Shown: piece after piece, positions 5,632 to 37,812 of the stretch
Position numbering within the stretch: the stretch's first letter is position 1
Layout of the letters: the number at the start of each line of letters is the position of its first letter
NCBI GenBank assembly: GCA_951406725.2
Contig: OX597818.1
Span: 101,928,001-101,992,000, forward strand
Length of the DNA: 64,000 nt
Reading direction: 5' to 3'
DNA from: Octopus vulgaris
Lineage: Eukaryota
Translations under genes and position numbers: made by a program
Notes under the pieces: model-generated
Seen by the model: the letters and a program-made list of their open reading frames with translations, nothing else
Told to the model about the DNA's origin: nothing
Databases searched by the model: none

Positions 5632-5806
5632 TCGTTTGCCACTACACACATGTGTTTTCTCTCCTTGTTTTCTGTGTCCCTTTCTGTAGAAGAGCGTAGG
5701 CACGAAACGCAAAAGCCTTTTTCTATTCCTGAGCGTTCTAGTAATACATCTGTTTGTTTTGTACACCACATGTCTTCGTCTTTTGCTCTTTTCGTAAACT
5801 CACCCT
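5632..5806 (+). mobile_element. Short non-coding element with HHR-like motif (CUGU[AG]GAA family)
   Basis: cttt-CTGTAGAA-gagc(gtag)gcac-GAAA-cg-ca-aaag at 5680-5715. Homologous to the minus-strand copy at 27038-27182. TA-flanked. Confidence 0.6.
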
Positions 5807-5880
5807 ATATATATATGTAAAATATGGTATAATTATAAACAGGGCAAATTACTCCGCAGACTTAAAAGAAGGGATGAACA

Positions 5881-5923
5881 ACTTTAATTGATTTTCGAAC
5901 CTTATGGGTTTTTCATCAGAGGT
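5881..5923 (-). ncRNA. Degenerate minimal hammerhead motif
   Basis: Reverse strand: acct-CTGATGA-a-aaacc(cataa)ggttc-GAAA-atcaat-TA-aagt. One mismatch each in stems I and II. Confidence 0.5.
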
Positions 5924-6139
5924 GTACACAACATTCTGACTGTCTCCAGAGAAACAAGCAGGTTTTCTATTTAAATACGCAGTAAATGCAGCAGTTGCTA
6001 TTTGAAGTGTTCCTTAACTTGCATTAGGAATATGTTCAACACTCTATAAATACCAGCGGCCTGTCAACGGGGTTCTTAATCTACACACTATGAATGTATG
6101 ATATAATCTATATGTAACATATGATATATTCATTCACAC

Positions 6140-6470
6140 ATATCTATCGAGAGATAGGTAGATAGATAGATAGAGAGACATATAGATAGATAGATAGATA
6201 GATAGATAGATAGATAGATAGATAGATAGATAGATAGATAGATAGATGATAGATAGACAGTTAGATAGATAGATAAACAGATAGACAGATATATATATAT
6301 ATATATATATATATATATATATAGATAGATAGATAGATAGATAGATAGATAGATAGATAGATAGATAGATAGATAGATAGATAGATAGATAGATAGATAG
6401 ATAGATAGATAGATAGATACAGACAGATAAATAAATAAATAGATAGATAGATGGAGAGATAGAGAGAACA
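6140..6470. repeat. (TAGA)n/(TA)n compound microsatellite
   Basis: Seen directly. Confidence 0.97.
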
Positions 6471-8829
6471 AGAATAAGGAGATATTCAGTGCGAATGCAA
6501 CAAATGTAGCGAGCGAAGAGTTTTTACATATTCACAAGTTTGTGTCTATTTGTGTAAGTGTATATATGTGTCTGTGTTTCTGCTTGAGTATATGCCAACG
6601 AACAAGTAGATGTTAATGGTGCATATATCTTTCAGATGGCTTGATTTATTTACATTAATAATATATATTTTATTGAGAACTCTATTTTATATAACATGTC
6701 ATTTTAGATTGAAACTCTTCAAATAATAGTGTAAAACGATTTCAAGCTGCGCTTAGGTAAAATACCAAACTGATGAACTTAGTACTAATGGTATCTGAGA
6801 TCAATGACTCGTGTATGTGTGGTTACGTGAGTGTGTCTGTGATTACGAAGATAAGTATACATATAAATACTACGTGTGTATAAAAATGTGCGTGTGTGCG
6901 TATATATATATATATGTGTGTGTATAGAGTCGAATATAGATAGATGTAAATGAGGTATATGTGCACATATATTATATATACATAATGAATGTGGATGTGT
7001 GTTTCTGAATATATGATTTTGTTTATCTATGCAAATAGGTTCATACATGGCTTTATTTTGATTTTACGTTATCATTTATCTGAGAAAACTTGCGATGGTA
7101 TATATAAAATATATGTTATCATCCCTCACTCTTACATATCACAGCATTAACAAATTTTACTGGTTACTTGGAGCACAGGATAAGTTGAGGCTTATGCAAT
7201 GGAAATAATATCCTCGAATTACAGATATTTTAAGAGGTCATTCATATAATGATATTACTTGTAATTTACAGGTGGCGACAGTGTAGCTTGACAAGTAATA
7301 ATGATTGGATATAGGAGGTGACATATTACATGATTTGAAAGCCATAAGTGAACATTTTACTAACACAGCTTCACTTTTACCGTAACATTGAATTACTTTG
7401 ATGAAGCTAGATTTAGTCTTAGTAGAACTAAGAAGAGAGTTTAAAGCAGGACAAGTTCTAATTTATCAATTCTTTTTTATGTCTTACACATAGAAACATG
7501 TATGTAATTATCCGCTATATATTCTGCCAATTATAATGCTTCATTCTGAAGAAAATTAATGTATCATGAACCCTCTTTCTCAGTGATGAGGCACCAATTT
7601 TAATTAAATTGAAATAAGACTCGGAACTAAAAGAATTCATTTTCTTCTGTTCATTTCAGTCTCTTACCGTGTAGTCTCACCAGACATCGGTTTTCTAGCG
7701 TATAGTGTATTTGAATGCGGACTATAGCCATGGTTGTTTGGCATATAGAGGGTTTGATAGTATTTATTTTACAACATAAACTAAACACCAAGTAAATACA
7801 TATGAAATTAATTTTAAGTATCCCGCATTTCAATAATTATTGGCTAAATTATATATATATATATAAATATATATATATATATATATATATATATATATAT
7901 ATATATATATATATATATATATATATATATATATATATATATATATATATATATATATATATATATATTATATATATATATATATGTATGTATATATGCG
8001 TGTATGTGTGTATTTAACTTTATATGTGTGTGTGCGTGTATGATAGATATCGTTAAATTATAGTTAGGTTATAATTTTAGTCAAAGCTATACCACTCTAC
8101 ACACTTCGGCATATATTTTGCCGTCATGTATTCTATTAATGAATTTTAAATACAATTTGATAACGTGATAACGCCGCCTAGCAGCTTTTCTCATATTGTA
8201 CAAGATCAGACAGTGTTCAGACGGGATAGCATAATTGATTTATTCTAATTACATTGTGTTGAACTTGTCCCCACTGCATCTTTTTCATTTTGATTAAAAG
8301 CTTGCATGAAGATAGCTTTAAATATTAACGCTGTGATTTTAATTTACATGCCTTTTTTCTCTCTTATTAGCAGCTGATTCTCTTTTAAGATTTCATTGAA
8401 CAGGTTTCCCTAAGTAAATGTTCTCACTTGTTATTCTATGTTATTAAATCCCTCGACTGCCCTTCTCGAAAGTCTTTAATTACTGTAATATCTCAAAGAA
8501 ACGGTTAGATCATGCTTGTGTGAAAAGAATCTAAACAGACCAGCCAGTGTGAAACGCATTAGAGGAAACCTATATAATTACATCCCCTTGCTAATTTATT
8601 TTTTTTAATTAATTAAAATTGAATATCTAGGCTTGCTCTGCAGAGATTTCTTTTTATCAGATTTTTATATCTAAATTCTGCTCAGCTCTAAAGAAATATG
8701 TATCATTAACCAACGGCCATGCATTGGTTTTCTACATCAATTATCTCACACAAATTTTGGGATGAAATAAACATGAAAGTGCCTAATATATTTTTCTAGA
8801 GATTTGCATGTCATTTAAATTTTATTTTT

Positions 8830-35556: not shown

Positions 35557-35701
35557 TACGAGGGAGCGCTGAAAAGTTCTTCACTTTGGGTTAATCAAAA
35601 TACAGGAGGATCAGGTAATTATATTGTTTCATTCTCATCTCAGATTCACGTAATGACTGCAGCGATCATTATAGTCAGGAACCTTTCAGCACCTCCTTGT
35701 A
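35557..35701 (+). mobile_element. Mariner-derived MITE, short form
   Basis: TA-cgagggagcgctgaaaagttct ... aggaacctttcagcacctccttg-TA. Confidence 0.7.
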
Positions 35702-35988
35702 CCTCTTCAAATCTCTCTCTACGTGAATTGTGTGATATAGAGTGCTCTATACAGTGTATAAGAACACCAGTGATCTCCGTAGCTTCTGCGATTTTATTCT
35801 TTTATATAATTAATAAAGAGACACGTGAATTAACAATAAGATTTATAAAATTTGCCATTTCCCCATATTACACGAGAACATCTTGCATAAGCGCCAACAG
35901 ATAAGATTTAAAAACGGAATCCATCATAAACTCCTATGAGAATATACAATGACAATGTTTTGGAAATGGTAAGAAATAGCCAATGAAA

Positions 35989-36599
35989 GGCGGAGAGCTG
36001 GCAGAAACGTTAGCACGTCGGGCGAAATGCTTAGCGGTATTTCGTCTGCCGTTACATTCTGAGTTCAAATTCCACCGAGGTCGACTTTACCTTTCATCCT
36101 TTCGGGGTCGAAAAATTAAGTACCAGTTACGCACTGGGGTCGATGTAATCGACTTAATACCTATGTCTGTCCTTGTTTGTCCCCTCTACGTTTAGCCCCT
36201 TGTGGGTAATAAAGAAATAGGTATTTTGTCTGCGTTACGTTGTGAGTTCAAATTCCGCCGAGGTCGACTTTGCCTTTCATCCTTTCGGGGTCGATAAATT
36301 AAGTACCAGTTACGCACTTGGGTCGATGTAATCGACTTAATACCTATGTCTGTCCTTGTTTGTCCCCTCTGTGTTTAGCCTGTGTTTAGCCCCTTGTGGG
36401 TAATAAAGAAATAGGTATTTTGTCTGCCGTTAAGTTCTGAGTTCAAATTCCGCCGAGGTCGATTTTGCCTTTCATCCTTTCGGTGTCGATAAATTAAGTA
36501 CCAGTTACAAACTGGGGTCGAGATAATCGACTGAATCCGTTTGTCTGTCCTTGTTTGTCCTCTCTATGTTTAGCCCCTCGTGGGCTGAAAAGAAATAAG
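35989..36599 (+). mobile_element. SINE family A, tandem trimer
   Basis: One head plus three units, restarting at 36220 and 36414. Confidence 0.88.
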
Positions 36600-37339
36600 A
36601 ATTACCCAATAATTGGCCGTGATTTGAAATATTTTGTAACAAGTTTTGCAGCAAATATGTTTCAATTCATCGTATATACGGCAAAATATTCTAATTCAGC
36701 GGCGTAGCATTCATTGTAATTAAATATAAATTCCAACTGCTTTTGTCAGTTCCGTGTATTTAGTAAATCAATTAGAGGCGTTGCAATAGTTATTAATAAT
36801 ATGAGGATATAAATCATACAACGCTGTTTACATAAGGCGTTAGATGTAATGTCAATAAACTTGTGTCAAACAATTTTTTAAAAAATTGTTTCTTTACTTT
36901 TTGTTGAACTTATCGCTGATGAATGAGAAATTAGGGGAGAATTATTCATCATAAATTTTATTGTGGCGGAAAATAAAATACAAACATAGTTAATAAAAAA
37001 AAATCATTTTCTAATGAACCAAAATAATTTTCGTTCAGATAAATTTTGATTTTCATGTATGTCACGAAATTAAATAATGTATGGTTCTTCGAGAATTTGT
37101 CGATGTGTCATGCGTTTATTTATCATAAGTATTAAAAAGCACATTGAAGGAAAACCGAGATATTCTAGGAAGGAAAGTTCGAATACATCTCAGTGTATTT
37201 CGTTATTCATTTTACGCTTCCTCATCGGCGAAAAATACACACAGATGTGTACACACTCCTAGGCACACAAAACAAATCACTGACACACACACACACACAC
37301 ACACACACACACACTAACACACATATATATATATATATA

Positions 37340-37812
37340 TAATTCCCTTACGGGACTGTCACGTGAAGTTAACAGTATAGAACCACTCTATCGCTCCACC
37401 ACCGCACATATCTCGATGAGATATTTAGAAATTTAATATTTCTGATTTTGGTGATCAGTGAATAAACTTCACTGTAAAATATATATATATATATATATTT
37501 ACGAAGTCTAGACAAATGTCTTCAGCTAGCAAACCTTTGCTACTCTAGACTGATGATGGGCAAGACCCAGACATATGCATGTCTCTAGATGCAATCCTAG
37601 CTGTTGGGGGTGTTTGTCTCCCCTTCGTAAATATATGAGGACACAGGAAATGTGTCAAGGCTGACAGGAAGCGTCGATGCTTCCTAGGGCTAAACAGCGG
37701 TGGTGTAATTCCCTTACGGGACTGTCACGTTAAGTTGACAGTATACAACCACTCTATCGCTCCAACACCGCACATATCTCTACGAGATATTTAGAAATTT
37801 AATATTTCTGAT
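37340..37812 (+). mobile_element. TA-flanked partial-tandem element with degenerate hammerhead (37545-37588)
   Basis: ~107-bp direct repeat 37340-37446/37706-37812. ctaga-CTGATGA-tggg(caaga)ccca-GA[AA missing]-cat(atgc)atg-TC-tctag. Confidence 0.65.

What the first reader, a model, noticed from the sequence alone, without database searches (positions are those of the whole stretch)
5632..37812. Diverse set of short hammerhead-bearing elements, mostly beside (TA)n microsatellites
Seen: besides the autonomous PLE, about seven distinct sequence families with HHR topology occur within 32 kb (5680/27127, 5881, 21177, 21894/32879, 26585, 34365, 37545). Most abut (TA)n, none has coding capacity, and some have tandem or inverted ends. 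Their cores vary: C3G8, U3G8, G3C8, an extra purine before stem II, and CUGUGGAA. Inference: these are truncated pLTRs or retrozyme-like non-autonomous partners mobilised by Neptune-like PLE proteins. That would be an RT-plus-ribozyme-cargo system using microsatellites as landing sites, and a natural library of HHR core variants.
Basis: partly seen in the sequence, partly recalled or inferred. Interest (0 to 1): 0.72.

Follow-up and report, generated by a model that had tools for sequence, protein, structure and literature searches.

The report
Penelope end-repeats and retrozymes bearing hammerheads
The ribozyme-shaped motifs are real and belong to known kinds of jumping gene: three families are short end pieces of protein-coding Penelope-like elements, and four are short non-coding repeats likely copied by such elements' enzymes; self-cutting is predicted, not tested.

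Summary
All nine sites sit at the stated coordinates and form seven repeat families with type I hammerhead topology, far above shuffled background. They are not one system.

A (5680/27127), B (21894/32879) and G (21177) are 3' end-repeats (pLTRs) of autonomous Neptune/Nematis-type Penelope-like elements (PLEs): longer genomic copies run into RT-endonuclease frames. C, E and F are 313-561-nt permuted or tandem non-coding units like animal non-LTR retrozymes. D is a fixed ~210-nt element with PLE marks (5' inversion, one-sided tail) and no linked ORF found.

TA targeting is strong for A, B and E, weaker for C, D and F. F's 'inverted ends' are an internal hairpin. Five of nine window copies carry clearly damaging private changes, so part of the 'variant library' is decay. 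Family-level variants are G3C8, U3-G8, U4C and U6.

Minimal hammerheads, the extra purine, solo pLTRs, TA preference and retrozymes as PLE parasites are all published. The scan reported the same on other windows. What may be new is that short copies pile up at initiator-like 5' ends, suggesting direct copying from transcript start to internal RT start.

The parts
82..5518 (+). Autonomous PLE (context): pLTR-ORF-pLTR, RT + GIY-YIG frame 2346-4700 with GLKF, DKG, YLDD and CX4CXXC linker (Neptune/Nematis type); U3-A8 minimal hammerheads at 1016-1053 and 5428-5465; (TA)n on both sides
5620..5806 (+). Family A (subfamily CUGUAGA): 3' end-repeat of a Neptune-type PLE; hammerhead 5680-5715 with family-level U6, this copy damaged at U16.1 and stem II
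5823..6128 (-). Family C: ~313-325-nt permuted unit, retrozyme-like; minimal C3-G8 hammerhead 5881-5923, degenerate in this copy
21151..21411 (+). Family G: 3' end-repeat of an autonomous PLE including a ~40-nt tail; hammerhead 21177-21220, family core mostly U3-G8, this copy U8
21855..22031 (+). Family B: 3' end-repeat of a PLE sister to A's; hammerhead 21894-21928, private C3-to-U change
24206..24294 (-). Old A-related 3' remnant (73% to 27055-27141) without a recognisable hammerhead
26444..26783 (.). Family D head-to-head pair: minus copy 26444-26652 with intact G3-C8 hammerhead 26585-26636 and long (tail) end; plus copy ~26651-26777 with short end; no TA flanks
27035..27185 (-). Family A (subfamily CUGUGGA), 5'-truncated; hammerhead 27127-27162 passes the descriptor
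32786..33015 (+). Family B near-full short copy; hammerhead 32879-32913 with A15.1 changed to G
34046..34633 (+). Family E: young (98-99% identical over the 171-nt query) 561-nt permuted or tandem unit with a short inverted 5' piece; C3-G8 hammerhead with true helix III, 34365-34427; (TA)n both sides
37342..37810 (+). Family F: 1.3 copies of a 366-nt highly self-paired unit; type I hammerhead 37545-37588, this copy with GAAA changed to GACA

Best explanation
The window holds nine insertions of seven retroelement families: A, B and G are short 3' end-repeats of protein-coding Penelope-like elements, while C, E, F and D are non-coding hammerhead-bearing units that were likely inserted by Penelope-type reverse transcriptase-endonuclease proteins. 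Shown: family structure, ORF linkage for A, B and G, discrete 3' ends, head-to-head inversions, and TA enrichment for A, B and E. Inferred mechanism: a PLE protein nicks AT-rich DNA, (TA)n for Neptune types, and starts reverse transcription at one of two internal sites in the RNA. This gives a short end or a 40-55-nt tail. For A, B, G and D most cDNAs run only about 190-260 nt and stop near an initiator-like motif, likely the transcript start, which yields solo pLTRs of near-fixed length. For C, E and F the template is likely a ribozyme-processed circular or multimeric RNA, which yields permuted and tandem copies. After insertion the copies decay neutrally. Cleavage is untested; the palindromic helix III of all families but E predicts dimer-dependent, weak activity.
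For: ORF linkage, A: 5 of 30 and 6 of 30 loci chosen on its 5' extension have same-strand RT/EN upstream, and L383 has A repeats at both ends of a frameshifted RT-EN region. B: 5 of 25 loci, confirmed in L384 and L386. G: 3 of 15 loci run into the end of the EN frame and its UTR, and L324 shows RT-EN then G. Same master: B short versus long divergence is 0.058 vs 0.058 (6 vs 23 copies) and 0.032 vs 0.038 (7 vs 3), intermixed on the tree. PLE footprint on non-coding families: D has a 5' inverted copy in 14 of 20 loci and two 3' ends about 50 nt apart, usually one per arm. F ends fall at two sites about 55 nt apart (16 and 7 of 23). These match the tail and inversions described in PMC8557442 and PMC11167929. 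Retrozyme traits: units of 313, 561 and 366 nt; circular fold z of -5.8 and -3.7 for two E units and -7.6 for F. TA: 3' TA in A 16 of 20 and B 15 of 18 sampled copies, against 4.5% background and 4 of 62 for a control repeat; E 10 of 12. 5' pile-up: lengths reject memoryless truncation (A p 0.0004, n 19; B 0 of 5000 simulations, n 18). B stops at the A of TCATTC in 10 of 30 copies with only 2 going further, and D at the A of TCAGAT in 7 of 19. G precedes D's start in 15 of 23 copies where the longer copies have C. Stems pair in every family despite unrelated sequences; A and B share stem II but swap the outer stem I pair C-G for G-C.
Against: No cleavage, circular RNA or start site was observed. 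The search for a partner of C, D, E and F used one Neptune-type protein and ORF scans within about 1.5 kb, so a Hydra, Poseidon or Naiad partner could be missed. C's unit is not unusually structured (z -1.1, one copy). F exceeds one unit in only 3 of 23 loci, and TA is at F's 3' end in only 4 of 23, C's in 5 of 15 and D's in 16 of 63 ends. A's and G's 5' ends are broader than B's or D's and are blurred by microhomology with TA. D's upstream 25-30 nt also reads like a branch point plus 3' splice site. Loci from genome searches are the best-scoring 15-30 of about 900-2600 candidates, and some are near-duplicates.
Confidence: 0.82

Rival explanations
1. All seven families are pLTRs of autonomous PLEs; C, D, E and F only look non-autonomous because their ORF-bearing masters are rare or belong to a clade my query missed.
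For: A and B looked fixed-length until searched from their 5' edges (versus 48, 54, 76). D reads as an open frame from an internal ATG to its long end and has its hammerhead near the 5' end, as in Poseidon pLTRs. A Hydra element is described from an octopus.
Against: E, C and F join head-to-tail to themselves with no intervening ORF. E and F fold like retrozymes. D showed no shared non-inverted extension in 20 + 20 loci, and only about 30 nt in 2 of 7 fetched stretches. The published Hydra-1_Obim hammerhead differs from all seven by eye.
Confidence: 0.1
2. The short A and B copies are true SINE-like non-autonomous families that amplify from short masters using borrowed PLE proteins.
For: About 70,000 and 63,000 copies by extrapolation from 20 and 18 per 0.8 Mb. 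Sharp length pile-up. Only 1 of 38 sampled copies is long. An internal promoter would let a short copy be re-transcribed (PMC2377424 passages).
Against: Every subfamily tested also has long copies (both B cores; both main A cores). Ages match and copies intermix on the B tree. One A variant group (CUGUUGA) was not tested separately.
Confidence: 0.15
3. The (TA)n tracts are made or lengthened by the elements, by telomerase-like slippage on a short (AU)n in the RNA, rather than being pre-existing landing sites.
For: The window PLE, A (L383) and G each carry (AT)3-4 inside the element directly after the 3' insertion end. PLE RT is sister to telomerase RT.
Against: TA also flanks the 5' side of 12 of 20 A and 8 of 18 B copies against 5.7% background. 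Some copies have long TA-containing duplications on both sides (L002, L015). TA tracts occur at about 1,700 per Mb, far above element density.
Confidence: 0.1
4. The motifs are chance matches in AT-rich repetitive DNA.
For: No Rfam hammerhead hit among those listed. Five of nine window copies carry damaging changes and fail a strict descriptor.
Against: 5 versus 0 of 50 shuffles and 17 versus 0-1; family majorities restore intact cores and stems.
Confidence: 0.01

Closest known systems
[quoted passage not shown]
   Same: [quoted passage not shown]
   Different: Family A fixes U at position 6 while position 7 varies, B has a U4C subfamily, and G is mostly U3-G8. I did not see these in the parts read.
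Neptune/Nematis-clade EN+ PLEs (Craig et al. 2021, PMC8557442; passages, section 11 and supplement passages read)
   Same: RT then C-terminal GIY-YIG, GxKF and DKG motifs, CX2-5CXXC linker, pLTR hammerhead, tail, 5' inversions, microsatellite bias.
   Different: Neptune versus Nematis was not resolved (no reference tree). Not Hydra: that clade has DKT, RWK and CxCX5C.
Animal non-LTR retrozymes (Cervera and de la Pena 2020, PMC7229834, parts 2-3 of 6; Li, Clavereau and Pollet 2026, bioRxiv 10.64898/2026.07.22.740005, parts 1-3 of 5, supplements closed)
   Same: C, E and F: non-coding units of a few hundred nt with a type I hammerhead, as monomers and short tandems; E and F strongly self-paired; proposed there as non-autonomous PLE derivatives.
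   Different: Circular RNA and cleavage were not shown here. Copies carry PLE-type paired 3' ends and inversions, and no parent pLTR was found.
Poseidon_Ac (Frangieh et al. 2024, PMC11167929, parts 1-2 of 4) and Adineta Pen2a/Pen3 solo pLTRs (PMC3846280, passages)
   Same: Two internal RT start sites giving a tail, AT-rich targets, uncleaved RNA as template, a ~218-bp pLTR with an initiator-like motif, solo pLTRs. D resembles this layout most.
   Different: In the passages read, solo pLTRs are put down to recombination or deletion. Here the 5' pile-up at initiator-like motifs and D's extra G point to direct copying.

Membership tests
Type I / minimal hammerhead | Core CUGANGA...GAAA...UH with helices I and II and palindromic or true helix III | tested here: met
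   Family majorities meet it with listed variants; five window copies have damaging changes.
Type I / minimal hammerhead | Stems kept through sequence change | tested here: met
   Across families all stems pair with different sequences; A/B swap C-G for G-C in stem I; D alternates U-A and U-G. No formal within-family covariation statistic was run.
Type I / minimal hammerhead | Self-cleavage | not testable with these tools
   Needs in vitro transcription of monomers and dimers.
EN+ PLE pLTR (A, B, G) | Contiguous with an RT + GIY-YIG frame on the same strand | tested here: met
   the frames are broken in the copies seen, and Pfam support for two A-linked pieces alone was weak or nil
EN+ PLE pLTR (A, B, G) | Repeat at both ends of the ORF | tested here: inconclusive
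   Met for A (L383) and the window PLE; no two-ended copy seen for B or G.
Neptune/Nematis clade | CX2-5CXXC linker, GxKF, DKG | tested here: met
   Window protein has all three; A-linked frames show the CX4CXXC linker.
Neptune clade specifically | RT phylogeny with reference elements | not tested
   No reference sequences were available as loci.
Hydra clade | DKT, RWK, CxCX5C, no CCHH | tested here: not met
   Window and A-linked proteins have the Neptune/Nematis linker instead. Not tested for any partner of C, D, E or F.
Non-LTR retrozyme (C, E, F) | Non-coding unit of about 150-600 nt with type I hammerhead, monomers and tandems | tested here: met
Non-LTR retrozyme (C, E, F) | Highly self-paired unit | tested here: inconclusive
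   E and F met (z -3.7 to -7.6); C not (z -1.1).
Non-LTR retrozyme (C, E, F) | Expressed as circular RNA | not testable with these tools
   Only assembled contigs were available and none was on record as RNA.
Non-LTR retrozyme (D) | Head-to-tail repeats or permutation, self-paired unit | tested here: not met
   Fixed 5' end, inverted rather than tandem copies, fold z about 0.

The most novel reading that the evidence does not exclude
Penelope-like elements mass-produce solo end-repeats as their default product: the protein binds its RNA near the 5' end, primes on (TA)n with a short (AU)n next to the internal start site, and copies back to the cap. This yields over 100,000 near-fixed-length hammerhead insertions with no separate SINE master. 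One such lineage has kept a U6 core, at a position normally an invariant A, through four subfamilies, implying a protein-assisted or non-cleaving structural role for the hammerhead.
Probability: 0.35. Interest if true: 0.55.

Novelty: new member of a known kind. Interest (0 to 1): 0.3.

Why it matters
As a class it is ordinary: PLE hammerheads, solo pLTRs and retrozymes are described, and dense hammerhead fields are expected in PLE-rich animals. Its value is as a test bed. One genome holds autonomous PLEs, tens of thousands of their short ends, and young retrozyme-like units with the same insertion footprint. This lets the proposed PLE-retrozyme partnership, the origin of solo pLTRs and the role of the PLE hammerhead be tested directly, including a natural U6 core variant.

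Tried and rejected
Rfam scan: microsatellite noise only among the listed rows. The generic repeat finder was swamped by microsatellites.

First reading that A and B are fixed-length SINEs: dropped after 5'-edge searches found ORF-linked copies. First reading that 21177 has no hammerhead: dropped after family copies showed one. TIR/MITE reading of F and D: rejected; F's inverted repeat is internal and D's inversions are variable-length 5' fold-backs. C as pLTR of the PLE beside it in L167: rejected, because that PLE ends in a G-related repeat. The endonuclease fragment upstream of B in L325 has an inverted TA junction and resembles another family, so it was not counted. No family matches the window PLE at DNA level.

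Expression: no RNA holder listed. Contigs of four runs guessed to be RNA cover E and join its unit end to its start, but tandem DNA gives the same join. No empty site for D in four runs laid as DNA contigs. A downstream promoter element was not found by eye at the canonical spacing in B or D.

Literature: Luense et al. 2017 is not held; only its citation was seen, and it may already list U6 or U3-G8 variants. Searches for 'hammerhead + octopus', 'hammerhead + A6U' and 'Penelope + octopus + non-autonomous + microsatellite' gave no paper on these families by listing. PMC3088659 mentions A6C (low activity) but not A6U. The cap-derived extra G idea is recalled from L1 work; one search gave only listings that I did not read.
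Full report
Setting. The window lies in a 2.8-Gb animal genome, likely an octopus by inference. It starts with an autonomous Penelope-like element (PLE) at 82-5518. Its 784-aa frame has RT and GIY-YIG matches (the GIY-YIG score is just under Pfam's cut-off), motifs GLKF, DKG and CX4CXXC, and a U3-A8 minimal hammerhead in each end-repeat.

Observation. All nine sites are at the stated coordinates. A strict type I descriptor found 5 motifs in the window against 0 in 50 of 50 shuffles. 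It found 17 in 80 evenly spaced 10-kb genome samples against 0-1 in 10 shuffles. A looser descriptor gave 7 versus 1.3 +/- 1.2 with two false hits. Rfam showed no hammerhead among 150 of 233 listed matches. Genome searches show each family is a dispersed repeat, with 933-2609 first-look candidates, which are not copy numbers. A and B occur 20 and 18 times in the 0.8-Mb sample, roughly 70,000 and 63,000 copies if the sample is typical. D gave 4 hits in 2 samples; C, E, F and G gave none. The window is modestly richer than average (p 0.013).

Cores. Family majorities (17-95 copies each, mostly similarity-selected) are as follows. A: C3-G8 with U at position 6 in 93%, position 7 being A 39, G 11, U 10, C 7, plus an extra A. 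B: C3-G8 plus an extra A, with a U4C subfamily (16 of 75). C: C3-G8. D: G3-C8 plus an extra G. E: C3-G8 with a real helix III. F: C3-G8 with an extended helix I. G: U3 with G8 in 64%. All but E have palindromic helix III. Stems pair in each family with unrelated sequences, and A and B share stem II while swapping a stem I pair. Against these majorities, 5680, 5881, 21177, 32879 and 37545 carry private damaging changes, 21894's U3 is private (2 of 75), and 34365 has a mismatch at the base of stem II. The extra purine and U3-A8 are in PMC4209133, and partial rescue by C3G/G8C is in PMC11167929. I found no report of natural A6U in the searches named under Tried and rejected, but could not read Luense et al. 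2017 or the supplements of PMC4209133.

A, B and G are PLE ends. Searching from A's 5' extension gave same-strand RT or endonuclease sequence upstream in 5 of 30 loci (four of the 30 are near-identical duplicates). For the subfamily of the 5680 copy the count was 6 of 30. L383 has A repeats on both sides of a frameshifted RT-EN region. B has a conserved upstream sequence in 5 of 22 distinct loci examined out of 30 returned. It has same-strand ORF hits in 5 of 25 loci, confirmed in L384 and L386. G runs into the endonuclease end in 3 of 15 loci, and L324 shows RT-EN followed by G. The A-linked proteins carry the CX4CXXC linker of Neptune/Nematis and lack Hydra's linker. None of the seven families matches the window's own PLE in DNA.

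Why so many short copies. In the unbiased sample only 1 of 38 A and B copies is long. Lengths pile up near 180-190 nt (A) and 192-223 nt (B), rejecting memoryless truncation (A p 0.0004 on 19 copies after dropping one cut by a sample edge; B 0 of 5000 simulations). Yet B short and long copies have equal divergence and intermix on a tree, which argues against a separate SINE master. The most common B stop is the A of TCATTC (10 of 30 anchors, a few of them spurious in TG runs; 2 extend further), and D's is the A of TCAGAT (7 of 19). These resemble the initiator consensus (recalled; an Inr-like TCACT in a 218-bp pLTR is in PMC3846280, and an internal Penelope promoter in PMC2377424). D copies have G before that A in 15 of 23 cases where longer copies have C, as copying of a cap would give (recalled from L1 work). 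With RT known to start internally, I infer that these solo pLTRs are direct copies from transcript start to RT start. A and G fit less sharply, and D's upstream bases also read like a 3' splice site. I put this sub-model at about even odds.

C, E, F and D. E is a young 561-nt unit, F 366 nt and C about 313-325 nt. Each joins head-to-tail to itself, and copies start at many points of the unit. More than one unit is present in 7 of 12 E loci, 3 of 23 F loci and up to 8 of 15 C loci, the last depending on the reference copy (overlapping loci were dropped). E and F fold far better than shuffles (z -5.8, -3.7, -7.6); C, D, A, B, G and a control repeat do not. This matches non-LTR retrozymes. F's 3' ends fall at two sites about 55 nt apart (16 and 7 of 23, some duplicates). 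D has a sharp 5' end, a head-to-head inverted copy in 14 of 20 loci, and two 3' ends about 50 nt apart, usually one per arm. That is the tail-and-inversion footprint of PLEs. No ORF of their own was found, but the test used one Neptune-type query and ORF scans near C, D and E, so a distant partner could be missed.

TA. A and B have (TA)4 at the 3' end in 16 of 20 and 15 of 18 sampled copies, against 4.5% of random positions and 4 of 62 copies of a control repeat. E shows 10 of 12, C 5 of 15 and F 4 of 23; D shows 16 of 63 ends under a stricter rule. TA preference is published for several PLE clades. The window PLE, A and G each carry (AT)3-4 inside the element just past the insertion end, which could pair with a nicked TA target; this is inference. 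5' TA flanks and TA-containing duplications favour pre-existing targets.

Expression could not be tested: no RNA holder was on record, and contigs cannot tell a circle from a tandem.

Verdict. A real observation, explained by known kinds: PLE end-repeats plus retrozyme-like parasites. Earlier scan notes on other windows of this and other genomes reached a similar reading; they are not independent support. They prompted the Hydra check, which was negative for the proteins seen here. New member of a known kind, interest 0.3.

Noticed in passing
window 1069-2409 and 2346-4700: The autonomous PLE has a 446-aa upstream frame overlapping the RT-EN frame in another phase; a homologous upstream frame appears in L381. 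Both frames are open in the window, so the copy may be recent.
   Followed up: no
window 1107-1114; L383 about 3620; family G tail: An (AT)3-4 tract lies inside three PLE families directly after the 3' insertion end, a possible priming microhomology.
   Followed up: partly
L387, L390; loose ends behind window 26651: A minority of D copies carry about 25-30 upstream bases that read like a branch point, pyrimidine tract and CAG, and also contain an initiator-like TCAGAT.
   Followed up: partly
L269, L281, L244: Internally deleted PLE copies join ORF pieces directly to the B or A end-repeat.
   Followed up: partly
L041:199, L061:96, L090:9809, L098:9826-9881: At least three further hammerhead families in the random sample, one U3-A8 and one as an inverted pair.
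   Followed up: no
window 12843-13430, 35986-36603, 11274-11498, 15301-15693, 58679-58915: A very abundant ~184-nt repeat in short tandems (152 hits in 0.8 Mb), not TA-associated; used as control. The label OK-type SINE is recalled.
   Followed up: partly
window 43891-47527: A 3.6-kb degenerate 33-bp (3 x 11) satellite; it gave two false hammerhead hits in the loose scan.
   Followed up: no
window 51304-51705: Fragment of a DDE_1 transposase (Pfam E 8.9e-05).
   Followed up: partly
window 56842-57107 and 55892-56204: Near-perfect two-copy tandems of 133 and 153 nt, unexplained.
   Followed up: no
window 26050-26560: The D insertion is continuous with the same left flank in contigs of three differently labelled organisms, so it is old and shared.
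   Followed up: partly
L133: An F unit sits inside the 3' UTR of a PLE related to the window's element.
   Followed up: no
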